The notes under the pieces are model-generated. The model did no database searches, was not told the DNA's origin, and worked only from the letters and a program-made list of their open reading frames with translations. Below, piece by piece: positions 253 to 37,261 of a stretch of 41,254 nucleotides of DNA. This DNA comes from Bacteroidota bacterium (GTDB lineage Bacteria > Bacteroidota > Bacteroidia > Flavobacteriales > Flavobacteriaceae), in NCBI GenBank assembly GCA_024278565.1, contig JAJRSY010000010.1, positions 1-41,254 of the forward strand, given 5' to 3'. A program made the translations under genes and the position numbers. Position 1 is the first letter of the stretch, and every line of letters starts with the position of its first letter.

Positions 253-294
253 TAAGGCCTGTTGTAATTTACTGTCCTCGATCCAAGGTTCGAA

Positions 295-331
295 TTAGTA
301 ACACCGTGACTCAAAGTCACGGTGTTACTAA
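295..331. repeat. REP-like perfect palindrome (17 bp arms)
   Basis: TTAGTAACACCGTGACT-caa-AGTCACGGTGTTACTAA. The 33 bp core recurs exactly in reverse orientation at 37168-37200. Confidence 0.85.
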
Positions 332-463
332 GTTTAGTTGCCTTTTGATTTTATCCAAAAAAAAATGGATAACAGGCTAAATGGCTTCGCATGCCAGACA
401 GGTTTAACCTAAATCGTTGCATGGTTGTTTTTTGGGTTTTGCGGTCTTTGAAATCAGATGACC

Positions 464-11369: not shown

Positions 11370-12476
11370 GTGATAAAGTTGCACGACAAGTATTTTAAGC
11401 CTTTTTTGGGGGAACCTGAAATACAGGCTGCCGTTAAAAACTTGGCAGATAAAATTGCATCCGACTACAAAAACGAGACACCTATTTTTGTTGGGGTCTT
11501 GAACGGTGCTTTTATGTTCGTGTCAGATTTTCTCAAACAATACCAGCATCTGTGCGAGGTTTCTTTCGTTAAACTTAGTTCTTATCATGGATTGACCTCA
11601 ACGGGCATTGTTGAAACATTGTTGGATCTACCAGAAAATATCGAAGGTCGTACCGTCATCATTCTTGAAGATATCATTGATTCAGGGCGAACCTTGAAAG
11701 AACTGGTGCACCTTTTTTCCAATACCCATGTAAAAGAATTTAAGATTGCCGCTTTGTTCTATAAGTCCACAACCTACAATGGAGAGTACAACATTGATTA
11801 TGTGGGAATTGATATTCCGGACAAGTTTATTGTTGGGTACGGACTTGATTATAAGGAATTGGGAAGAAATTTAAAGGAAGTCTACCAATTAAACCAAAAA
11901 CATATGATAAATCTTGTGATTTTCGGAAAACCCGGAGCGGGAAAAGGAACCCAGGCCGAATTTTTAAAAGAGAGGTACAATCTAAAACATATTTCAACCG
12001 GTGATGTGTTTCGGTACAATATCAAGAACGGAACAGAATTGGGTGCTTTGGCCAAGTCCTATATAGATAAGGGTGATCTGGTGCCCGATGAGGTGACCAT
12101 AAAAATGTTAGAGGACGAGGTTGATAAAAACCCAGGTGCGAGCGGGTTTATTTTTGATGGATTTCCAAGAACTACCGCCCAGGCTGAAGCTTTGGATGTT
12201 TTTTTAGCTTCTAAAGATATGGGGATAAACGCAACCATAGCCCTTGAGGCCAATGACGAGGTGTTGACCCAACGCCTTTTGCAAAGGGGCAAAGTGAGCG
12301 GAAGAACCGATGATCAAGATGAGGATAAGATCAGAAACCGATTTGATGAGTACAACCAAAAGACGGTGCCTTTAAAAACCTACTATGAAGGGCAGGGCAA
12401 GTTTCATAGTGTTAACGGTATTGGGGAGATAGATGAAATCTCACTCAGGTTGGCAAAGGTCATAGAAGAGCTTTAG
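11370..12476 (+). CDS. adk: Fused hypoxanthine phosphoribosyltransferase / adenylate kinase
   Basis: N-half has VLNGAFMF, EDIIDSGRTL and VGYGLDY (HPRT). C-half from ATG 11904 has GKPGAGKGTQ, HISTGD and FDGFPRT (short-LID Adk). No stop lies between them. Confidence 0.9.
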   Translation: MIKLHDKYFKPFLGEPEIQAAVKNLADKIASDYKNETPIFVGVLNGAFMFVSDFLKQYQHLCEVSFVKLSSYHGLTSTGIVETLLDLPENIEGRTVIILEDIIDSGRTLKELVHLFSNTHVKEFKIAALFYKSTTYNGEYNIDYVGIDIPDKFIVGYGLDYKELGRNLKEVYQLNQKHMINLVIFGKPGAGKGTQAEFLKERYNLKHISTGDVFRYNIKNGTELGALAKSYIDKGDLVPDEVTIKMLEDEVDKNPGASGFIFDGFPRTTAQAEALDVFLASKDMGINATIALEANDEVLTQRLLQRGKVSGRTDDQDEDKIRNRFDEYNQKTVPLKTYYEGQGKFHSVNGIGEIDEISLRLAKVIEEL

Positions 12477-12643: not shown

Positions 12644-12692
12644 TATACTCCTGCCAAATGGAAATTTCGGATTTCCATTTGGCAGGAGTATA
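12644..12692. repeat. Perfect 22 bp-arm palindrome
   Basis: TATACTCCTGCCAAATGGAAAT-ttcgg-ATTTCCATTTGGCAGGAGTATA. Confidence 0.85.
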
Positions 12693-14440: not shown

Positions 14441-17400
14441 CTACCTGTTTCCGATCAACACCCTTACCCCTTCACTATGGCTACTGAATTCAGGCGCATA
14501 CATACTTTGAATGGTGGTAATACCGTTACTGAATTCACCCGCATTGTTTATTCTTAAATCATATTCAAAAATATAAACCCCTTTGGGCAGGTGGTCAAAA
14601 AAGAAATTGGTGCTGGCATCTTTGGTGCTTTCGTAATACCCAAGACCGTCTTGCCATTTGTAACGTGAAATCACGTTTACCGGTTCTAGACCAGAGGCGC
14701 GCATATCTTTCATGTGAACGAATTCCATGGGGCGATCCGCTCTTAATTCAATTCTGGCACGGATCAAATCACCTACTTTCAATTTTGTTTTTGAAGTAAT
14801 CTCCGATATTTCTTCTCCAGTATCGGTATTCTTTTTTAGAAAGAGTTTCTTTTTTAGTTTTAGGGGAGTTTCGGCCGAGGTGATTTTGTCAAGATTTTCA
14901 AAATACTGCCAGTAAAGTGCCCCCCACGCAATGCCCTCACCTTTTTTTCTGATCTGTACCTCGGCCATTTTAGGTTTTACCCCGTTATCGTTCCAAGTGG
15001 TTTTGTAATAACCCGTACCGGCTTCCACTTTTACGTTTTCCAATTTTGAAGCATCTATTTTTTCTCCTCCGACCAGTACTTCTACGGCCTCTGTAACCGA
15101 TAGCCAATCACTGCCCTGAAGCAGCAATGCATATACAGCATCAGTAGTGGCCTTCGTGGTTTTCCATTGATTCGCCTGTTTGTTCTTTAACAACCATATT
15201 TTAAGGTTATCAATGGTTTTGGTATCGTTTTGAATCTCTGAAAATGCTTCGATCAATAATGCTTGGGTCTCGATAGGGGCCTGATACCAATACCATGAAT
15301 TGGTATTTTCTTTCCAGTACATGCCCAACTCTTCAGAGGTTATGCTATTTTCTTTGAGCGACCTTATTATTTTGTTCGATGTGGTCGAATCATCCATTCT
15401 ATTTAGGATCAAGGCCAACATTCCTTTCGAGTACAGGCTTTTGTTCATCCAATACTTTTGGGCCTGGCCTTTGTAATATGGGGTAATTTCATTTACTTTT
15501 TTAGACCTTTTGACGCCCTTGAAAAAGCTTCGCATATAGAGGTAGTGGATCTGTGTCTGGCTCAAATGGTCGTCTTTCAGGTTCGTGGCATACTTTTTCA
15601 TGCGGCTGTATTCACTCACGAATTCCCGATCCAAATACGCAATGGCATTTCTGATCAGAGCTTCATTGTTGTCGGTAGTCGAAGTTCGGTCACTGAGCGT
15701 AGTCGACATCTCGGCTACGCTTGATGGTGCAGTAAGTTTGTTCAAATGACCAAGCCCTGTAACAATGTGTTGTGTGATAAATCTATTATCGGGCCCACCG
15801 TTGAACCAAGCCCAGGCCCCTGATGGTTCCTGGTTCTGCCGCAATTTGTTCAAAGCTATAGCCTGTTCGCTCTTCATTTTGTTTAGATCGAAAAGCAGGG
15901 CAATGCGTTTTTTCTGTTCTGTTTCTGATTGGGCATCGCGCAACCATGGGGTTTCTTGAATGAGAAGAGATTTTAATTCTTGGTTCTTCTCCAAGTTGCT
16001 TACCAGCGCATCTGAGCTTGCCCACAGGTCGAACACTTCCTTGATTCTCGGATTGGAATTTGAAATATGGCTTGCCAAGGTATTGGCATAGTATCTTGAA
16101 AATGTTTGTTCGTTGCATTCATAGGGGTATTCCATTAAATAGGGCAATGCCTGCACTGCGTACCAAGCGGGATTGGAAGTGATTTCCAAGGTTAGTTTAT
16201 GGTGTTTCAGCGTAGTGGAGGTATTGTTCCTTAATTTTTTCAAGACGAAAGTTTTGGTTTGATCGCTACGTACCCACATCGGCATTGTTTCGGTCACCAG
16301 CATTCGATTGGTGAGAACGGGCAGTACATTTTGCTCCCCATCACTAAAATTCCCTGCCTTGGCCATTACCTTGTATTGTACGGCCTGAATGTTTTCTGGA
16401 ATTTTCAATGTCCATGAAACTTGGGTGTTTCCCAAAGAATCGACCTGAAACTTTCTGCTGGCTTCAATCTGGCCTCCTCCGCCTGCGGCACCTCCCCCCA
16501 AGGAGGAGGATAATAGCAATTCTGATGAAACATCTTTACCAGATACCGCATCGGTCAATTCTAACTTAGCTTGTCCGGAAAGTGTTTTGTCAGTAAGGTT
16601 TGCAATTTTACTGCTGATAACGATTTCATCGCCTTCCCTTAAAAAGCGTGGGGCGTTGGGTATGACCATCAGTTCTTTTTGGGTAACGGTCTCTAAGATT
16701 TTTACCGAACTTTCTAAATTCTTGGTATGTGCCAACAGCTGTAGTTTCCATTTGGTCAGGGCTTCGGGCGTGGTGAAACTGAAAGAGACGTTTCCTTCTT
16801 TGTCGGTCAGTAACCGTGGAAGGAAAAAAGCGGTTTCTTGAAGGTTTTTACGAATTTTTACATCGTCAAAAGAAGATTCTTGGTTTTCTTTTTGTTCGGC
16901 TATCGATGTTTGGGTTTTTGGTTTGTTCACCCCTGTCTTGTCTTTCTTCTTTGACGCTGAACCCTCTACTATTATTTTTTCCAATTCGGCTCCATCCGCT
17001 TCCATTTTCATTTCGGGCATTGGAGCAGCGTTTTTTCCCATTCTACCGCCAACCAATCCTTTGCTTCTGCGTATGCGTAGGCGACCATATCCAAAGTGCA
17101 GCCCAAACCAATCGAACGAATCAAAGTACTGTTCAGAGTACTGTGTGTTATAACTGTAACTATCGTAATCAAGGTTGTATGTATTAAAGGGGCGTGTGCC
17201 AAAGCTTTGTTGGGCGTTGGCGTATCTGTGCGAATAGTAATTTGGTTTGTGCAGTGGGTGAAAATCCCAATAATGGCTCTTGAAAGCATCCAAAGAGGCA
17301 TCGTACATACTGGCCAATAATTCTGCAGCAACCTTGTCGCCCTTGGGACCTTTGATTTTGAACGACCAGATTTCATCGGTGCCAGGCTGTAATTTATCTC

Positions 17401-20400
17401 GAAAGGTAACGGTCTCGATTTCAAGATCGGTTCTGGGGTAGGGCACCGAAATATTTATAGTGTCCGATTGAAAATAATTGTAGGCCGAAAAACTGTAGGT
17501 GACCGCAAACCCACCTAGGTCATCTTTGGTGACGGGTATCGAAAAACTCTCTGAACTCTTGTTCAAATGAATTAATTTGGTATCGATTGTTTTTTGGTCT
17601 TTTTCAACATGAACGGTTACGGTTAGGTCTTCTGAATTTGAAAGCAAGGTGACCTTTACCTTGTCACCAATTGCATAATTTTGCTTATTGGTCTTGATTT
17701 CGAACAATTGGTTGTCGGCCAGTGTTTTATCGGTAGGGCTGAACAGGGTGGTTTGTACTACGTCTTTAACCGTTTGACCGAACTTGTCTTTGCTTTCCAA
17801 TTCGATGACGTACTTGCCCGAGGACCACTTAGTACTGTTGGCAAGGGTGATTTCGGTCGATTTTTCGGTGTCAAATGTTGCTTGCCAAACCAGTTGCCCT
17901 TTTTTCCAAGTGGAAGGGTCGTGTTCATTTTCGAAAGCATCATGGGGGTACAGTTCTTTGAATTTGGATGTACTGAAACCGGCATAGTCAGGTGCTGCCC
18001 AAGGTCTGGGCCGCAGTATATGTTCAGGTGTTATTAGTTTGTACATTTTCAGAGCCCCCGTTGCGGGTACCGATTGGCCGTTCAGGTTATTGGTTGAAAC
18101 CGTGATCTTGGTTTCTTTTTCATCTTTGTTCAATGGGTCTGGGATATTGATATTGGCGGTCATGGCATGGTACCCGATCGTAACCATTGTGGTGGTACTA
18201 TGCGTTTCACCATTGATGTCGGTAACATCGGCCGTGATTTCATAACTGAAAGTGGGCAAGTTCTTTTTGTCGACCGTGTTATCGGGAATGGCCTTGAAAT
18301 TGATTTGGTATTTGCCGGAAGCATCGGTCGTGGTTTCACCATGGGCGATTTCTTGCGGACTGGCATTGTAATAGGGGTGGTGCCAATAGTACCATCTTGG
18401 AAAATAGACCGCTCTTTTGACCCTGTAAGTGACTTTGGCTTCTGTGATATTGCTTCCGGCATAGGCCATCGCTTTTCCGTTTACCGTTACGCTGTCGTTC
18501 ACCTTATAGGTTGCGGTAATTGGCTCGAAGGAAGTCTCGAATTTGGGGCGTTTATATTCTTCCACAGAAATAGCAGCATAACCGCTAATGGCGATTTGCT
18601 TTGATGTCACTTGTAGCGAAAAACTACCGGTAAGTCCGTTATTGGGTATGATGAATTCCCCAGAAAACGAGCCGTAATCATTTGTTTTGAAGTTTTGGGT
18701 ACCGACCACCTGCTGGTTTACATCTTTCAATTCAACCGTGACTTCTTTGTTTATGAGTACAGATGTCACCCCTTGGTTGTTCTGAATGGCAATGCCCTTG
18801 AAATACAAGGGTTGACCAGGGCGATAGATGCTACGGTCTGTAAATAGAAAACAGGGATTTGTAATGCCTTCATTGTCTTGGTCGTATCTGCTGTCAACAT
18901 AAAAACCATCAAAAAAGGCCTTGTCATTTGCATGGGTGATTGTGATACTGACATCGTTCCAATACGCTTTGGTCAGCGGTAAACTGACTGTTCCGGTTTT
19001 ATCGGTAAACTGGGTTTTGGCCAGTTTGGGGCGGTTGTAATTTTTGCGATAGGCAAAAGTCATCTTTGCTTCAGTGATAGGTTTCCCTTTGTGGCGATCT
19101 ACTAACTGAAAGTGGTGGTGGGTATTCGTTCGGGTCTCTATCAAGGCCAAATTGGTCACTTGTACCTGACTATATGCAAAGGTCTTGTCGGTATCTTTTT
19201 TGGGCATTGCTAAAATCACATACCGCCCATTTCTCAGGGGCGGCATTGAAATTTCGGTGCTGTGGGTTTGATAATCTCCTTCGTTCTTTAGTTCCGTTTT
19301 CCATTGTTCCACAATTGATAATTTTTTGAGGAACGCCAGTTTTTTAGGTTCGGGATACAACTCGTTCAATTTTTTCAATTGGCTGGGTGTTATTTTACGA
19401 ACCGAAAGTTGCAATGCATTGTGGTTTTTGTAATTGACCAATAAGCGTGCGGTTGTATTTATGGGAATATGCCTTTCGGTGGTCAATTGCAGGTTTTTGG
19501 CCAAAATATCACTTTTGAGCACCCTGCATTTATCGGCGCCTTTGCTTTTGGGGAATTCAGAAATTACAGCAGCGCAAATCCCCAATGCTTCCTTGAGTCG
19601 CCATTGGTGTTTTTCATTGACTTTTGGTTGGTAGGTATTGCCCTGTTGTTGGTACAGGGCGGCAATCTCGTAATCGTATAGTGAGCTGTTGGGGTTTAGT
19701 TTTAGGCCTTCGGCCGTATTTTGGAGCACTTTCAAATACTGTTCGTCCTTATTTTCAAAAGTAGCATATTGGTGAATGAACCTAAGGCGTTCGATATCGA
19801 CCTCGACATAGGCATCGAAAGACTTGTCGCCCAAATGAAATTTCAATAATTGCTGGTATATTAACAGTGCTTTTGATTGCAACGAGGTTTTGTCTTTGGT
19901 GTTTATGTGCTGTTGGGTAAATTGATAGGCCTCGCACATAATTTCAGGGTCGTTCAACTCAAACTTATCAGCGGGTCGGGTAATGTTGTTTTCACTGGTC
20001 TTGTAAAATTTGAGCGCTGTATGGGCCAGTAGATCAAACAGGGTAGGGCGGTACCGCTCAGAACCGGATTCCTTGTTCAGGATTACATTGAATTCAGATA
20101 CCGAAACTTGTTGTAGACCCAATTCGTTTTTTAGTGAATTGTCAAAGAGGTTGCCTATTTCCTCGAAAAGGGTGGTCAGGTCCCATGTGCGAAAATCTGT
20201 GGAATCAACCTTGGTCTCTGTTTTGGTGCGGTTGTAAAATTGATAGCGGTTTTGCTGAAAAAACCGCCAATAGAGATTTGCTAAATAGCTCTCCAGTACG
20301 TTCTTAGTGGGAAAATTGCTCTTGTTTATCTCAGACTTAAAATCAGTGATGATCTTCAGTTGGGCATCTTCTTCTAAGGTCAAGGCATATTTAGAGGTAT

Positions 20401-20611
20401 ATAGCAATGCCTTTAAAATTTGCGCTGAATTCTTTTCCTTTTTAGCCTTTTCTGAAATGGATTTGACCACTTTCAGAGCAGATTTGGTCAAGGCATCATT
20501 TTCGAGTTTTTGTACATTTTTCCATAAACTTGTATATGAATCATTGTTTTTCTGTGATTGAGCCGTTTGCGAAAAAAAGAATAGTGCGAGTATAATGGTA
20601 ATGTTCTTCAT
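14441..20611 (-). CDS. Bacterial alpha-2-macroglobulin family protein
   Basis: Signal peptide, MG2 motif FTDRSIYRPGQ, VEEYKRPKF, IRKNLQETAFF, thioester motif CNEQ (16117-16106), C-terminal SMYAPEF. Confidence 0.93.
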   Translation of the reverse strand: MKNITIILALFFFSQTAQSQKNNDSYTSLWKNVQKLENDALTKSALKVVKSISEKAKKEKNSAQILKALLYTSKYALTLEEDAQLKIITDFKSEINKSNFPTKNVLESYLANLYWRFFQQNRYQFYNRTKTETKVDSTDFRTWDLTTLFEEIGNLFDNSLKNELGLQQVSVSEFNVILNKESGSERYRPTLFDLLAHTALKFYKTSENNITRPADKFELNDPEIMCEAYQFTQQHINTKDKTSLQSKALLIYQQLLKFHLGDKSFDAYVEVDIERLRFIHQYATFENKDEQYLKVLQNTAEGLKLNPNSSLYDYEIAALYQQQGNTYQPKVNEKHQWRLKEALGICAAVISEFPKSKGADKCRVLKSDILAKNLQLTTERHIPINTTARLLVNYKNHNALQLSVRKITPSQLKKLNELYPEPKKLAFLKKLSIVEQWKTELKNEGDYQTHSTEISMPPLRNGRYVILAMPKKDTDKTFAYSQVQVTNLALIETRTNTHHHFQLVDRHKGKPITEAKMTFAYRKNYNRPKLAKTQFTDKTGTVSLPLTKAYWNDVSITITHANDKAFFDGFYVDSRYDQDNEGITNPCFLFTDRSIYRPGQPLYFKGIAIQNNQGVTSVLINKEVTVELKDVNQQVVGTQNFKTNDYGSFSGEFIIPNNGLTGSFSLQVTSKQIAISGYAAISVEEYKRPKFETSFEPITATYKVNDSVTVNGKAMAYAGSNITEAKVTYRVKRAVYFPRWYYWHHPYYNASPQEIAHGETTTDASGKYQINFKAIPDNTVDKKNLPTFSYEITADVTDINGETHSTTTMVTIGYHAMTANINIPDPLNKDEKETKITVSTNNLNGQSVPATGALKMYKLITPEHILRPRPWAAPDYAGFSTSKFKELYPHDAFENEHDPSTWKKGQLVWQATFDTEKSTEITLANSTKWSSGKYVIELESKDKFGQTVKDVVQTTLFSPTDKTLADNQLFEIKTNKQNYAIGDKVKVTLLSNSEDLTVTVHVEKDQKTIDTKLIHLNKSSESFSIPVTKDDLGGFAVTYSFSAYNYFQSDTINISVPYPRTDLEIETVTFRDKLQPGTDEIWSFKIKGPKGDKVAAELLASMYDASLDAFKSHYWDFHPLHKPNYYSHRYANAQQSFGTRPFNTYNLDYDSYSYNTQYSEQYFDSFDWFGLHFGYGRLRIRRSKGLVGGRMGKNAAPMPEMKMEADGAELEKIIVEGSASKKKDKTGVNKPKTQTSIAEQKENQESSFDDVKIRKNLQETAFFLPRLLTDKEGNVSFSFTTPEALTKWKLQLLAHTKNLESSVKILETVTQKELMVIPNAPRFLREGDEIVISSKIANLTDKTLSGQAKLELTDAVSGKDVSSELLLSSSLGGGAAGGGGQIEASRKFQVDSLGNTQVSWTLKIPENIQAVQYKVMAKAGNFSDGEQNVLPVLTNRMLVTETMPMWVRSDQTKTFVLKKLRNNTSTTLKHHKLTLEITSNPAWYAVQALPYLMEYPYECNEQTFSRYYANTLASHISNSNPRIKEVFDLWASSDALVSNLEKNQELKSLLIQETPWLRDAQSETEQKKRIALLFDLNKMKSEQAIALNKLRQNQEPSGAWAWFNGGPDNRFITQHIVTGLGHLNKLTAPSSVAEMSTTLSDRTSTTDNNEALIRNAIAYLDREFVSEYSRMKKYATNLKDDHLSQTQIHYLYMRSFFKGVKRSKKVNEITPYYKGQAQKYWMNKSLYSKGMLALILNRMDDSTTSNKIIRSLKENSITSEELGMYWKENTNSWYWYQAPIETQALLIEAFSEIQNDTKTIDNLKIWLLKNKQANQWKTTKATTDAVYALLLQGSDWLSVTEAVEVLVGGEKIDASKLENVKVEAGTGYYKTTWNDNGVKPKMAEVQIRKKGEGIAWGALYWQYFENLDKITSAETPLKLKKKLFLKKNTDTGEEISEITSKTKLKVGDLIRARIELRADRPMEFVHMKDMRASGLEPVNVISRYKWQDGLGYYESTKDASTNFFFDHLPKGVYIFEYDLRINNAGEFSNGITTIQSMYAPEFSSHSEGVRVLIGNR
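15675..15727. repeat. REP-derived palindrome inside the A2M coding sequence
   Basis: GGTCACTGAGCGTAGTCGA-catc-TCGGCTACGCTTGA, same family as the intergenic GAGCGCAGTCGAGA/TCTCGACTGCGCTCGA pair at 29746-29799. Confidence 0.7.
16471..16510. repeat. Second REP-like palindrome inside the A2M coding sequence
   Basis: CCTCCTCC-GCCTGCGGCACCTCCCCCCAA-GGAGGAGG; encodes SSSLGGGAAGGGG. Confidence 0.65.
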
Positions 20612-20895: not shown

Positions 20896-21056
20896 ATCAA
20901 TAGTTCGGTAAATTTTTGTAGACAATAGCAAGCTAGTGTCGCAATTCTTTTATTTTCAATGCTTTAACCCGTTCGTCCGTCTGGTTTACCTGCCGTAGGC
21001 ATGGCAGGCGGGCTCATAATTCAGTATTCATAACTCATAATTACAGAAGTGTTGTT
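20896..21056. repeat. Direct repeat element, copy 1
   Basis: Begins ATCAATAGTTCGGTA and ends GTTGTT; 20942-21036 is identical to 22008-22102. Confidence 0.92.
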
Positions 21057-21062
21057 AAAACT

Positions 21063-21920
21063 TCATTGTTGATCTGCACCACCAATAAAGGCGTTTCCAT
21101 TCTCATCTTGATTTGTAGGAGGACTTGTTTGAGTGAAAATTGACAAATCATCAACATATACATGATTATTATTAGGTGGGTTCTCATTGTTCCAATAAGT
21201 AAACAAGTAAAATCCATCAATAACTCCTCCTGCATCTGTAATAGTCGGTACATCGGTACGGTCAAATATCAATTTATTATCCCTCCAGATTCGAAAACGC
21301 CCGTTACCGCCATCATCAACACTTACATCGTCCACAGACAAATACATCTCATACGTTTCCCAAGTGTCTCTGGGAATTGCGTTACCATCATAATATTCCC
21401 AAATATCGTGTATTTCTTTAATAGTCTGCAACACTTGTACCGTATCATTGGCGTTATTAACATATAGATCATTATACCCGCCATTGGAGCCATCTCCTTG
21501 TTTATTGTGCAGTCGCAAGAACTTCATAAATGGAGTGGCACTAAATTCAAAAGATGATGGCCAATATATTGCTAACCTCACCCATACTTCGCCTCCTTTT
21601 GGAATAGTTGGGCTAAGCGGTATAATTCCTCCCCAATATCCAAACCCGCCATCATTTTCAGGTTTGATTTCCATTTTGGCAGATGTAGTGCCAGAAAAAC
21701 TTTGTTCAGTACTTGCTTTTGTGTTGCCAGAAGCACCAAAAGGATTTCCACCAGAAAGGGGTACGCCGTCTGCATAATTTTCAAAATCATCTATAAAATA
21801 TGCGTTTGCAGTTTCATAAAAAGTCGTACCATCAGTTGGTGTTGCTGTGTCATCGTTATTATCGCAACCTATTGTTGTTAATATTAATGACAATACTATT
21901 ATTTTAATTGTTGTTTTCAT
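21063..21920 (-). CDS. Lipoprotein with polysaccharide-lyase-like beta-jelly-roll domain
   Basis: Lipobox TIG-C after MKTTIKIIVLSLIL; DDFE, WETYEMY...GRFRIWRDNKLIF and YVDDL pattern; visibly more AT-rich codons than its neighbours. The function is inferred. Confidence 0.65.
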   Translation of the reverse strand: MKTTIKIIVLSLILTTIGCDNNDDTATPTDGTTFYETANAYFIDDFENYADGVPLSGGNPFGASGNTKASTEQSFSGTTSAKMEIKPENDGGFGYWGGIIPLSPTIPKGGEVWVRLAIYWPSSFEFSATPFMKFLRLHNKQGDGSNGGYNDLYVNNANDTVQVLQTIKEIHDIWEYYDGNAIPRDTWETYEMYLSVDDVSVDDGGNGRFRIWRDNKLIFDRTDVPTITDAGGVIDGFYLFTYWNNENPPNNNHVYVDDLSIFTQTSPPTNQDENGNAFIGGADQQ

Positions 21921-21938
21921 TTTATTTATTTTTCTTTT

Positions 21939-22123
21939 ATCAATAGTTCGGTAGGTTTTTGTATACAATTGATTTTTAGTAAGTTATACGATGGTAAGCT
22001 AGCATTTCAATTCTTTTATTTTCAATGCTTTAACCCGTTCGTCCGTCTGGTTTACCTGCCGTAGGCATGGCAGGCGGGCTCATAATTCAGTATTCATAAC
22101 TCGTAATTACACGAAATGTTGTT
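21939..22123. repeat. Direct repeat element, copy 2
   Basis: Same ends and 95 bp core as copy 1, about 24 bp longer near its left end. Confidence 0.92.
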
Positions 22124-22137
22124 TATACCAATTATAA

Positions 22138-22340
22138 TACCTTAAATCCGCAAGGGTTTTCGTAGCGAAAAGTCTAAATGTCTGTTAGTGTTGGTCTAGC
22201 GCAGAAAAAAGTAACGCAGACGTATCATTAGATACGGTGAGCAGGTTTTTTTTGGCCTGCCTGTGCACGGCAGACAGGCATTGCCAACAATGACGGGCAG
22301 TTAGGCTTTGCAGTAGAAATACCCTTGCGGATTTAAGGTA
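22138..22340. mobile_element. MITE-like long hairpin element (about 200 bp)
   Basis: Perfect 20 bp terminal inverted repeat TACCTTAAATCCGCAAGGGT / ACCCTTGCGGATTTAAGGTA; arms continue imperfectly to about 58 bp. Confidence 0.8.
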
Positions 22341-22493
22341 ATAACCAATCAGTTTAGTTAAATGACTGATAATCAACGGTTTTTGTGTCATTGGAAAATC
22401 GAATCAGATTCAAAAAAATCTATGTTCCGACCTCAAAAAACACTGGCTCAATACTTTGAAAATAAGATGCTTACGGTGCTTTTTAAACTAAAA

Positions 22494-22643
22494 GTAACTG
22501 TTCAGTCGTTTTAAAAAAAATAGAGAATAAATGATTTTTTTTGTGAAACACACCCCAAGCCCCTCTCAAGAGGAGAATATTGGTGTTTATTCTCTATTTT
22601 TTTATCCCATTTGTTCTAATTTTACTATCGGCTGAACAGTTAC
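22494..22643. mobile_element. 150 bp MITE with 8 bp target-site duplication
   Basis: TIR GTAACTGTTCAGTCG / CGGCTGAACAGTTAC (14/15), flanked by AACTAAAA at 22486-22493 and 22644-22651. Confidence 0.85.
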
Positions 22644-22703
22644 AACTAAAAAGGGCATACTGATTAGTTGCCAATTATATTATTATTTTGTTACCTATGT
22701 TTT

Positions 22704-24827
22704 TTATTTCCAATCCACTATCACAAATTCACAGCGTCTGTTGATTTCGTGTTGTTGTTCTGTGCAGGCCTCTTCGGTCGCACATTTTATAATGGTTTTG
22801 GTCTCACCATATCCTTTGGGTGTTAGGCGGTTCTTGTCGATTCCGTTTTCCACAAGGTATTCAACAACCGAGTTAGATCGTTTTTGCGAAAGGTCCGTAT
22901 TGTATTTATTGTTTCCGCGAATGTCGGTATGGGTACCTATTTCTAGAACAATACCGGGGTTTTCTTTTAAAATGCGCAGTATCTCATCCAAGGTTTCCTT
23001 CGACTTTAACCGTATGTACCACAGGTCGTAATCGAAGTGGATCTTTGGCTCTGCCTTTATGACAATTCGCTCACCCTGACGTTCGATGGCCGGTTCTTTT
23101 TCGATGCCTTTTTCAATGCGTTGTAAACGTTCTTTTTCAGCCTTTTCTTTAGCTTTTTCGGCTTTCTTTCTTGCATTTTCTTCTTCTTTCAGTCTTTCTT
23201 CTTCCGCAAGTTGGGCTTTTCTAGCTTCTTCCTCTTTTTCTTTTTGAAGAGCTTCCGATTTTTGTTTCTGTACTTCTGAGTGTGATATCAGCTCAAGAGA
23301 ACCGTCTTTTATACTGCTTCGGTCTTTGTTGGTGATCACTATTTTCGAACTTTCTTCATAAGCGATTTTTCTGCCCTGTACTTTATATTCGGCCTCACAT
23401 GAAGCGGTAAACTTGAATTCGGCATCTTGCGATGCAGTTTGTGTTTCTATGATATTGCCCTCGCTGTCCACAAGCACGACTTCGGCGAATGCGATAGGTA
23501 GTTTGGTTGTCGCATCGGTGATGGTACCTGCAATATACTGTTTGCAATCTTCAATGATCAGTTCTTTGGTTTCTGTGAACTGATAAATATCGTCACTACC
23601 TTTTCCATCGGGCCGGTTTGAAGAAAAGAATCCTTTTTTCTCACCGTGGTTCACCGCATATGCAAAGTCATCGAACCCACTGTTGATTGGCTTGCCAACA
23701 TTGTTGGGCTTTTGAAAAGTACCGTTCTGTTGTTTTGATACAAAAACATCCAACAGTCCGAAACCTGCATGGCCGTTTGAGGAAAAATACAATTGGTTTG
23801 ATTCACCGATAAACGGAAATTGCTCTCTACGCTCTGTATTTATGGTCTTTCCTAAATTTATTGGGTCTCCGTAGGTTCCGTTGTCGTTGATGGCGACGGA
23901 ATACAGATCCAATGAACCAAATCCGCCCGGTCTGTCAGAGGAAAAATACAGGGTGTTTTCCGAAGGATCCAAAGTGGGATGCTCGGTAGAATGATCGTCA
24001 TTATTGAAAGGTAGTTCAACCTCGTTCTGCCATTTGTTATCAACCCATTCCGCCTTGTATATTTTCAATCTTGAGACTTTGTTGCCATCGGTTTTCTTTT
24101 TTCCCTTTGATAAATTATTTCGGGTAAAATAGATGGTTTTTCTATCTTTGGTAATGGCAAAAGTGGCTTCGTGCATTTTGGTATTGATGGTTTCCGAATA
24201 GTTTGTACTGATGCTGTCACCAATAGCCAATTGACTCATTGGATGTGCATACATATCCAAATAACTTTCATTGTTCCATCGATACATTTTTTTTACGAGT
24301 GCCTTCTTTTTGGGTGCTGAATAAATCAATGTGCTATCGACCTTTACGGCACCGAATTCCGATTTGGCAGTGTTCAATGCGAGGTTTTCAAGGTCAAAAC
24401 GCGCTCCTATGGCATCCACATTTTCCAAATGGGTCAATTGTGCCTGTAACTCAGCCACTTTTCCAGGTTGGTTTTGGGCTGCATAATACGCCATCAAGAC
24501 CTCGGTGGCCTCTTCATATTCGCCAACGGCTTTTAAGGTTTGGCTGTATTTGAAGAAATAGCTTTCGTCAAGGTTTTCACCGTAAACAGAGGTCAGGTAC
24601 GAATACCATTTTGCCGCATTGGGCAGTTGGTTGGTATTGTAGTAACTGTCGGCCAGGTTTTTGATGACCACAGAGCTCTTATTGGTCTTTGCCAGTTCTT
24701 CGTACAGCGGTATTGCATCGGTGTAGTAAGCCCTTTCAAAATAAGTATTGGCGCGTTTGAGGTCTTGCTGCGCATAAGAGGCTTGCATGAACCCGAAACA
24801 TAGTATGGTGAACAGTATTTTTTTCAT
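22704..24827 (-). CDS. OmpA-family protein with TPR, PD40/WD40-like and carboxypeptidase-regulatory domains (PorE-like)
   Basis: Signal peptide, TPRs, LYFSSDRPGGFGSLDLY repeats, C-terminal HTDIRG...YNTDLSQKR...NRRCEF. Confidence 0.88.
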   Translation of the reverse strand: MKKILFTILCFGFMQASYAQQDLKRANTYFERAYYTDAIPLYEELAKTNKSSVVIKNLADSYYNTNQLPNAAKWYSYLTSVYGENLDESYFFKYSQTLKAVGEYEEATEVLMAYYAAQNQPGKVAELQAQLTHLENVDAIGARFDLENLALNTAKSEFGAVKVDSTLIYSAPKKKALVKKMYRWNNESYLDMYAHPMSQLAIGDSISTNYSETINTKMHEATFAITKDRKTIYFTRNNLSKGKKKTDGNKVSRLKIYKAEWVDNKWQNEVELPFNNDDHSTEHPTLDPSENTLYFSSDRPGGFGSLDLYSVAINDNGTYGDPINLGKTINTERREQFPFIGESNQLYFSSNGHAGFGLLDVFVSKQQNGTFQKPNNVGKPINSGFDDFAYAVNHGEKKGFFSSNRPDGKGSDDIYQFTETKELIIEDCKQYIAGTITDATTKLPIAFAEVVLVDSEGNIIETQTASQDAEFKFTASCEAEYKVQGRKIAYEESSKIVITNKDRSSIKDGSLELISHSEVQKQKSEALQKEKEEEARKAQLAEEERLKEEENARKKAEKAKEKAEKERLQRIEKGIEKEPAIERQGERIVIKAEPKIHFDYDLWYIRLKSKETLDEILRILKENPGIVLEIGTHTDIRGNNKYNTDLSQKRSNSVVEYLVENGIDKNRLTPKGYGETKTIIKCATEEACTEQQHEINRRCEFVIVDWK

Positions 24828-29679: not shown

Positions 29680-29856
29680 AGGTCAGTAGATAAGTACATA
29701 GGCAAGATTAATTATCAGTTATTTATAGCTTGTAATTTTGTCCGTTCGAGCGCAGTCGAGAACTATACGCAATTCTAAAAAGGTCTCGACTGCGCTCGAC
29801 CAGACAGTTGGCCACAAAACCAATGAAAAAAGCAAGTAGCTAACTACTGACCTCTA
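29677..29856. mobile_element. 180 bp MITE with target-site duplication and internal REP doublet
   Basis: TIR TAGAGGTCAGTAG / CTACTGACCTCTA, flanked by AAATACAA (29669-29676 and 29857-29864); internal TCGAGCGCAGTCGAGA...TCTCGACTGCGCTCGA. Confidence 0.85.
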
Positions 29857-30946: not shown

Positions 30947-30964
30947 CTTTGTTCTTTCAGCGAA

Positions 30965-31019
30965 CCTGCCTGGCCGGCAGGCAGGGCGGTCTTTTATCCC
31001 TGCCTGCCGGACAGGCAGG
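30965..31019. repeat. Pair of CCTGCCTG-N5-CAGGCAGG palindromes
   Basis: Copies at 30965-30985 and 30999-31019. Confidence 0.8.
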
Positions 31020-31090
31020 TTTTGTCGGACAATACTGTATTATAACCATTAATTGTTCGCTAACGATCAACAAATACCTATTTTTAATGT

Positions 31091-37041: not shown

Positions 37042-37261
37042 GATAACCACACTTCAATACTCCTCGCAAAGACGAATTATCCTCCCAAATGTATTTGCGA
37101 GTGCAGCGAAGCGATCTCTAACTTTGGAACACAAATTCATTTCGGCTAAAAAAAAAAAATTTGAGTTAGTAACACCGTGACTTTGAGTCACGGTGTTACT
37201 TAGATTAGTCGTCGTTTTATGCGAGATAACCAATTACTTCAATGCCCCTCGCAAAGACGAA
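37042..37261. repeat. Intergenic repeat cluster between convergent genes
   Basis: Direct pair GATAACCA..ACTTCAAT..CCTCGCAAAGACGAA (37042-37076 and 37225-37261), related inverted unit TTTGCGAG...GAAGCGATCTC (37094-37118), and the palindrome at 37168-37200. Confidence 0.7.

What the first reader, a model, noticed from the sequence alone, without database searches (positions are those of the whole stretch)
20896..22123. Cassette-like foreign gene precisely bracketed by two direct copies of a 160-185 bp element
Seen: the copies at 20896-21056 and 21939-22123 share both ends and a 95 bp identical core. The single gene between them starts 18 nt from one copy and stops 6 nt from the other, and it looks more AT-rich than its neighbours. 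Each copy has imperfect inverted ends (CAATAGTTCGGTAA versus TTACAGAAGTGTTG). No recombinase gene and no outer target duplication are visible. Inference: a gene-capture unit (ORF plus one element), either an integron-like cassette with a non-attC site or a MITE-bounded unit integrated through a circle into a resident copy. This is the best candidate for an undescribed system in the window.
Basis: partly seen in the sequence, partly recalled or inferred. Interest (0 to 1): 0.8.

Follow-up and report, generated by a model that had tools for sequence, protein, structure and literature searches.

The report
Miniature transposon pair flanking foreign gene
The two repeats are copies of a small jumping-DNA family scattered through this genome, and they most likely landed separately on either side of a foreign gene for a predicted sugar-binding or sugar-cutting surface protein, so this is probably ordinary genome clutter rather than a new gene-capture system.

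Summary
The repeats are real (20898-21054 and 21941-22121) and flank one foreign-looking lipoprotein gene with a polysaccharide-lyase-type fold. They are two of 11 copies of a dispersed miniature transposon (MITE) family; two other Flavobacteriaceae genomes hold 46 and 47 end matches. 17 of 33 complete copies carry exact 5-7 bp target duplications, against 12 of 1056 mismatched flank pairs. Copy 2 has its own duplication (TTTAT); the pair has no outer one. Peeling copy 2 and three further stacked MITEs off by their duplications leaves a plain 54-nt spacer between the OmpA-domain gene and this gene. The same element/gene/element layout recurs around an esterase gene in another genome, whose relative keeps the gene without the second copy. 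No integron integrase or attC box was found. Best reading (0.65): separate MITE insertions into a spacer hotspot around an already acquired gene. Unexplained: the two copies share a 95-bp identical core with divergent ends, and copy 1 lacks a duplication, so entry through a circle stays possible (0.15); that route is already described for other MITEs. The parent transposase was not found.

The parts
20898..21054 (+). MITE family A, copy 1 (157 bp); 23-nt internal deletion relative to copy 2; no target duplication
21063..21920 (-). Foreign-looking gene, 285 aa, predicted lipoprotein (Cys18 after a hydrophobic stretch), PF14099 polysaccharide lyase 32.6 bits (cut-off 29.9), beta-jelly-roll model
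21941..22121 (+). MITE family A, copy 2 (181 bp), flanked by its own 5-bp duplication TTTAT (21936-21940 and 22122-22126)
20943..21037 (+). 95-nt core identical in both copies (its twin is about 22009-22103); includes a CCTGCC..GGCAGG palindromic insert of a kind found at many other places in the genome
22137..22341 (.). MITE family B (about 205 bp, 60-nt inverted arms), other copies on C126, C167, C56 and in G002, G337, G338
22341..22671 (.). MITE family C (GTAA-type ends, IS66-derived); 8-bp duplication CAATTATA at 22129-22136 and 22672-22679 encloses B, C and D
22494..22643 (.). MITE family D nested inside C; same ends as a 1.5-kb element with an IS66 transposase on C2
20741..20873 (.). Repeated palindromic (REP-like) stretch left of copy 1, with matches on C164, C271, C288 and in G001
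14441..20611 (-). Alpha-2-macroglobulin family gene, left neighbour (context)
22704..24827 (-). OmpA-domain/PD40/TPR gene, right neighbour, upstream of the gene in the same direction (context)

Best explanation
The two repeats are copies of a dispersed miniature transposon (MITE) family, and they likely inserted separately into the short AT-rich spacers on either side of a horizontally acquired lipoprotein gene that was probably already in place. Steps: (1) shown: the element has inverted ends, 5-7 bp target duplications, 11 scattered copies and no coding capacity; (2) shown: the gene is absent from 21 of 21 other genomes of the genus and has an atypical GC3; (3) inferred: the gene first came to lie about 54 nt behind the OmpA-domain gene by an unknown route and is probably read through from it; (4) inferred: copy 2, then families C, B and D, inserted into that spacer, moved by DDE transposases supplied in trans (for family A probably IS1634- or IS701-like; not found); (5) inferred: copy 1 is a sister copy, from a local hop or homogenised by gene conversion with copy 2, and has lost its duplication by decay or adjacent deletion.
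For: Dispersed family: 9 both-ended copies on 8 contigs plus 2 right ends in G000; 46 and 47 end matches in G337 and G338 versus 1 and 2 for the reversed control. Exact duplications of 5-7 bp in 17 of 33 copies versus 12 of 1056 cross pairs. Copy 2 has its own duplication; the pair has none outside. Removing copy 2 and the C/B/D nest leaves 20+2+8+24 = 54 nt between OmpA stop and gene start. Tight spacing is common for solo copies: an ORF end within 30 nt of the left end in 12 of 33 and of the right end in 10 of 33, with both orientations (13 versus 12). The same layout surrounds a carboxylesterase gene between a polyprenyl synthetase and a GH3 gene in G337; G338 (92-93% identical DNA) keeps all three genes and lacks the second copy. 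The only family homologue found among 300 genomes lies in a tandem lipoprotein cluster with no repeat over 26 nt. MITEs in AT-rich intergenic DNA, nested in one another and losing their duplications with age are described in PMC10969869 (passages).
Against: The two copies share a 95-nt identical run, against at most 37 in the other 35 pairs of G000 copies, with all 13 differences at the ends (permutation p 3e-5): they are linked by descent or recombination, which separate insertion does not explain alone. Two of 11 copies within 1.1 kb are expected 0.04 times by chance. Copy 1 has no duplication. One 217-bp contig of run X1 joins a copy-1-type left part to copy 2's right end and flank. No same-species genome with the gene and without the copies was available. 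In the G337 control the first copy has no recognisable left end and the second no exact duplication, so gain versus loss is not told apart.
Confidence: 0.65

Rival explanations
1. A circle of gene plus one MITE copy, excised from a donor where two copies flanked the gene, recombined into a resident copy here by homologous recombination; the crossover and its conversion tract made the core identical and left two hybrid copies.
For: Direct orientation, one gene, 95-nt identical core with divergent ends; chance adjacency is unlikely (0.04 expected pairs); the X1 contig looks like the predicted single hybrid copy; the route is proposed for MITESen1-bounded units in PMC13367494 (passages).
Against: It predicts an outer duplication (absent) and makes copy 2's TTTAT duplication a coincidence (1.1% of cross pairs). 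The X1 contig does not reach the left flank, differs in 11 letters of the core, and X1 shows no high-identity cover of single-copy genes over 20 kb. No second gene carried this way was found in G000.
Confidence: 0.15
2. The gene moved as a composite transposon: a transposase in trans used copy 1's left end and copy 2's right end.
For: Both outer ends are nearly intact. MITE-bounded composites are known (PMC13367494).
Against: That paper uses repeats flanking the outermost ends as the test; here left flank GCGAT and right flank TTTAT do not match at 5, 6 or 7 bp, while copy 2 is bounded by its own duplication.
Confidence: 0.07
3. One MITE copy took part in the acquisition without a circle: copy 1 is a crossover point or adjacent-deletion end that trimmed the incoming DNA, while copy 2 is an ordinary later insertion.
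For: Copy 1 lacks a duplication and sits 8 nt from the stop; copy 2 keeps one. The site is variable in relatives: two other genes lie between A2M and OmpA in G009 and G022.
Against: 3 of 9 G000 copies and 16 of 33 overall lack an exact duplication, so its absence needs no special event. Does not explain the identical core by itself.
Confidence: 0.1
4. An integron-like cassette: the element is a non-canonical attC site and a tyrosine recombinase captures single genes.
For: One promoter-less ORF tightly between two direct repeats; no TAnnTTTG promoter motif was found in 21901-22720 on the gene's strand.
Against: No integron integrase over the cut-off in G000, G337 or G338 (best 113.5 bits versus 265); no GTTRRRY in either copy; fold z -1.61, made by the inner palindrome, ends unpaired; target duplications point to a DDE transposase; no arrays; both polarities to neighbouring genes.
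Confidence: 0.02

Closest known systems
Prokaryotic MITEs (non-autonomous IS derivatives; review PMC10969869, census PMC11602168)
   Same: Under 500 bp, short terminal inverted repeats, target duplications that fade with age, AT-rich intergenic sites, variable length, nesting; narrow taxonomic range.
   Different: This family's ends were not found in print and its parent IS is unidentified; it may be in the census's supplementary lists, which could not be read.
IS1634 family (and IS701) as the likely parent, from Table 1 of PMC2266710
   Same: Ends fit IS1634's C-----YT pattern and its 5-6 bp AT-rich duplications; ends also resemble IS701's ---YACT-Y--YR (6 of 7 left, 5 of 7 right).
   Different: The IS1634 pattern has only three positions; 7-bp duplications occur here; IS701 makes 4-bp duplications. 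IS1634 and IS701-like elements fetched from this family have other ends.
TIME-COMP / MITE-bounded composite units (MITESen1, IS101, TIME244; PMC13367494)
   Same: Gene between two direct MITE copies; a circle integrating into a resident copy has been proposed there.
   Different: Those are Tn3-derived, near-identical copies with outer duplications and known single-copy alleles; here no outer duplication, an inner one, divergent ends.
Integron gene cassettes / CALIN
   Same: Single ORF with short gaps to direct repeats.
   Different: No attC boxes or hairpin, no integrase, no array, target duplications present.
PF14099 / PL20-like beta-jelly-roll proteins (glucuronan lyase 2zzj, alginate lyase Aly36B, Cip1)
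   Same: Fold of the gene product (Foldseek E 1.9e-10 to 6e-8, TM about 0.5-0.55).
   Different: 13-20% identity; no sequence match in the PDB; activity untested.

Membership tests
Prokaryotic MITE | Short non-coding element with terminal inverted repeats | tested here: met
   122-366 bp in G000, about 136 bp core in G337/G338, imperfect 14-15 bp inverted ends
Prokaryotic MITE | Target site duplications | tested here: met
   17 of 33 exact 5-7 bp versus 12 of 1056 cross pairs
Prokaryotic MITE | Multiple dispersed intergenic copies | tested here: met
   11 in G000 on 10 contigs; 46 and 47 end matches in G337, G338
Prokaryotic MITE | Presence/absence polymorphism at one site | tested here: met
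   G337 filled, G338 empty between esterase and GH3 genes; junction not clean
Prokaryotic MITE | Autonomous IS with the same ends | tested here: inconclusive
   Not found among transposase loci of G000, G337, G338 and 250 family genomes, nor in three collection scans; all three carriers are fragmented assemblies
IS1634-derived element | C-----YT ends and 5-6 bp AT-rich duplication | tested here: met
   Both ends fit; duplications 5-7 bp; a weak three-position pattern
IS1634-derived element | Ends shared with an IS1634 transposase element | tested here: not met
   8 loci inspected from 6 family genomes with NF033559 hits have other ends; G000 has no hit over the cut-off
MITE-bounded composite unit (TIME-COMP-like) | Two copies of one MITE around cargo | tested here: met
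MITE-bounded composite unit (TIME-COMP-like) | Duplication flanking the outermost ends | tested here: not met
   AAGCGAT versus TTTATAC; copy 2 has an inner duplication instead
MITE-bounded composite unit (TIME-COMP-like) | Single-copy empty allele, or the unit at a second site | tested here: inconclusive
   No genome holds either; X1 contig ambiguous
Integron cassette / CALIN | attC R boxes (GTTRRRY, motif recalled) at the element ends | tested here: not met
   0 of 6 matches in L214 lie in either copy
Integron cassette / CALIN | Single-strand hairpin pairing the two ends | tested here: not met
   z -1.61, only inner hairpins (copy 1, + strand)
Integron cassette / CALIN | Integron integrase in the genome | tested here: not met
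   TIGR02249 over cut-off in 0 of 3 genomes; G000 is 85% complete
Integron cassette / CALIN | Arrays with fixed polarity | tested here: not met
   One copy per contig except C124; 13 versus 12 orientations
Integron cassette / CALIN | IntegronFinder covariance-model hit | not testable with these tools
   Program and model not available

The most novel reading that the evidence does not exclude
An unnamed Flavobacteriaceae MITE family serves as a portable recombination site: a circle of one MITE plus a carbohydrate-active lipoprotein gene, from a donor carrying the same family, integrated into a resident copy, leaving the 95-bp converted core as its scar. This would extend MITE-mediated gene capture, known mainly for resistance genes on enterobacterial plasmids, to a chromosomal glycan-processing gene in an environmental Bacteroidota.
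Probability: 0.15. Interest if true: 0.45.

Novelty: new member of a known kind. Interest (0 to 1): 0.2.

Why it matters
Mostly as a caution: in MITE-rich Bacteroidota genomes with short AT-rich spacers, a gene tightly bracketed by two direct repeats arises without any capture system, and target duplications tell the cases apart. The family itself looks unnamed, is patchy (three genomes found) and has no known parent transposase. If the circle route were proven it would be a modest extension of a known mechanism to environmental glycan-processing genes.

Tried and rejected
Parent transposase: PF01609 in G000 (12 matches), G337 and G338 (7 each), PF13546 in G000 and 250 family genomes, NF033559 in G000 and 250 family genomes; none of the fetched loci had matching ends. 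End-motif scans: 41 genome loci (14 from the two other carriers; the rest had no left end in register and mostly lay in ORFs), 72 metagenome loci and 39 viral loci; the 7 ORFs next to candidate ends that were scanned gave no transposase family (6 other families, 1 without a hit). Element ends in 0 of 300 family genomes, one per genus; the single same-genus hit (G009) lies in coding sequence; the C14 hit is spurious. Plasmid collection: only four 27-nt chance matches. Rfam: 3 matches, all far below gathering scores. Gene in viral contigs: none. Run X1: share 0.05, no cover of the gene or of single-copy genes at high identity, so it is not used as support for an empty allele. Earlier findings: two look-ups returned nothing. 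A pair-count call on the alignment failed on a length slip and was dropped. One paper id was not held.

Full report
Observation. The two direct copies exist. Comparison with other copies in the genome puts the ends at 20898-21054 and 21941-22121. They align with 146 matches, 11 substitutions, 2 gaps and one 95-nt identical run. Between them lies one ORF, 21063-21920 on the minus strand, 285 aa, its stop 8 nt from copy 1 and its ATG 20 nt from copy 2.

The gene. It matches PF14099 (polysaccharide lyase) at 32.6 bits, cut-off 29.9, and no NCBIfam family. It begins with a hydrophobic stretch and a Cys followed by acidic residues, which I read as a lipoprotein signal (inference from the sequence). 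A model from 54 sequences (pLDDT 89.3) is an all-beta jelly roll closest to glucuronan lyase 2zzj, alginate lyase Aly36B and Cip1 at 13-20% identity; the activity is untested. 102 homologues were found, the best at 70% identity; the few named ones include Aquimarina, Deltaproteobacteria and Myxococcales. It was found in 0 of 21 other genomes of the genus and 1 of 300 of the family, where it is split in two frames and sits among similar lipoprotein genes with no repeat over 26 nt. GC3 is 0.266 against 0.404-0.478 for 10 neighbours, in the lowest 21 of 1348 long ORFs. In G001 the aligned blocks on either side lie 110 nt apart, against about 2 kb here. Of 10 further relatives fetched upstream of A2M none has the gene; 1 has OmpA directly, 2 have OmpA after two other genes, 7 have other genes. 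So the gene is a recent arrival at a variable site.

The element. G000 holds 9 copies with both ends (122-366 bp, 8 contigs) and 2 further right ends (a twelfth match is spurious). Length varies through palindromic inserts of the CCTGCC..GGCAGG kind. A scan of genome contigs gave 41 loci, 14 of them from two other Flavobacteriaceae genomes, G337 and G338, which hold 46 and 47 right-end matches against 1 and 2 for the reversed control. The ends were found in 0 of 300 family genomes sampled one per genus. I tested 33 both-ended copies: all 9 of G000 and 24 of the 41 distinct right ends fetched from G337/G338 (17 without a recognisable left end were dropped; 93 matches were listed in all; one site is shared by the two genomes, so counts are not fully independent). 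17 of 33 have an exact 5-7 bp duplication (6 of 9 in G000), against 12 of 1056 mismatched flank pairs. This is a MITE as defined in PMC10969869 (passages). The ends fit the weak IS1634 pattern with its 5-6 bp AT-rich duplication, and partly IS701 (Table 1 of PMC2266710, passages), but no transposase with these ends was found, so the parent is only a guess.

Is the bracket special? Among the 33 copies a simple ORF call puts a gene end within 30 nt of the left end in 12 and of the right end in 10; neighbours run one way in 13 and the other in 12. In G337 a partial copy, a 216-aa carboxylesterase gene and a second copy stand in the same layout (stop 2 nt from one, start 21 nt from the next) between a polyprenyl synthetase and a GH3 gene; G338, 92-93% identical there, keeps the genes and lacks the second copy. 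The junction is not clean, so gain and loss cannot be told apart, but the element varies without the gene.

History of the site. Copy 2 is flanked by TTTAT on both sides; copy 1 and the pair as a whole have no duplication. Right of copy 2 lie three more families: C with an 8-bp duplication (CAATTATA, 22129-22136 and 22672-22679), B at its left edge, D nested inside. C and D have IS66-type ends; D's ends bound a 388-aa IS66 transposase on C2. Removing copy 2 and this nest leaves 54 nt between the OmpA-domain stop and the gene's ATG, an ordinary spacer. No TAnnTTTG motif (recalled consensus) was found in 21901-22720 on the gene's strand, so read-through is likely but untested. Left of copy 1 lies another repeated palindrome. 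The site is a hotspot for small elements.

Integron tests. TIGR02249 passes its cut-off in 0 of 3 genomes; none of 6 GTTRRRY matches lies in either copy; copy 1 folds at z -1.61 without pairing its ends. IntegronFinder could not be run; its paper reports integrons as rare in Bacteroidetes (10.1101/2022.02.28.482270, passages).

Against my reading. The 95-nt run far exceeds the 37 nt seen in the other 35 pairs, all differences lie at the ends (p 3e-5 if differences fall independently), and 0.04 such close pairs are expected by chance. The copies are therefore sisters or have recombined; conversion, a crossover, or collapse by the assembler would each do it. One 217-bp contig of run X1 joins copy 1's left-middle letters to copy 2's right end and flank, as a single hybrid copy would; but it stops short of the left flank, differs in 11 core letters, and X1 does not cover single-copy genes of 20 kb at high identity. 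The circle route, proposed for MITESen1 in PMC13367494 (abstract and passages), needs copy 2's duplication to be a 1-in-100 coincidence and the outer one to have decayed; I give it 0.15.

Novelty. The end motifs occur in 0 papers of the library (topic searches). A census lists 81,380 Bacteroidota MITEs (PMC11602168, passages); its supplement could not be read, so the family may already be catalogued. Verdict: a new member of a known kind, interest 0.2.

Noticed in passing
window 22129-22679: Three MITE families stacked in one spacer: B at the edge of C, D nested in C, all inside one 8-bp duplication. C and D are IS66-derived; 45 C-end and 18 D-end matches in the genome.
   Followed up: yes
G000:C2:12501-14039 (L313) and C117:6208-7208 (L314): A 1.5-kb element with D-type ends carries a single 388-aa IS66 transposase ORF (235 bits); a 1-kb element with C-type ends carries IS66 fragments.
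   Followed up: partly
X1 contig on window 20931-20961 + 22040-22214: Joins copy-1-type letters to copy 2's right end, flank and MITE B at 2 differences in 175 nt, in a run that does not cover the neighbouring genes.
   Followed up: partly
L101, L106, L135, L146, L152, L155, L156, L161, L167: A different, GC-richer repeat family of roughly 170-200 bp in metagenome contigs carries the same 17-mer near one end, inside longer inverted ends.
   Followed up: no
G337 and G338 (L229/L226, L233/L222, L245/L228): The two genomes share several insertions of the family at orthologous sites, with different inner lengths (116 versus 304 bp), so inserts accumulate after insertion.
   Followed up: partly
L247 (G318): Tandem cluster of at least four similar-sized lipoprotein genes, one with PF14099; the homologue of the window's gene is split over two frames.
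   Followed up: no
window 289-349 and 37151-37220; 29739-29806; 30963-31021; 12644-12692: Other intergenic palindromic repeats; the genome is rich in REP-like and MITE-like elements.
   Followed up: no
window 11370-12476: One 368-aa ORF reads like hypoxanthine phosphoribosyltransferase fused to adenylate kinase (by eye from the translation; not scanned).
   Followed up: no
L080-L098: Two IS701-like groups (about 360 and 477 aa) with ACTCA-type ends in G000 and six family genomes; unrelated to family A ends.
   Followed up: partly
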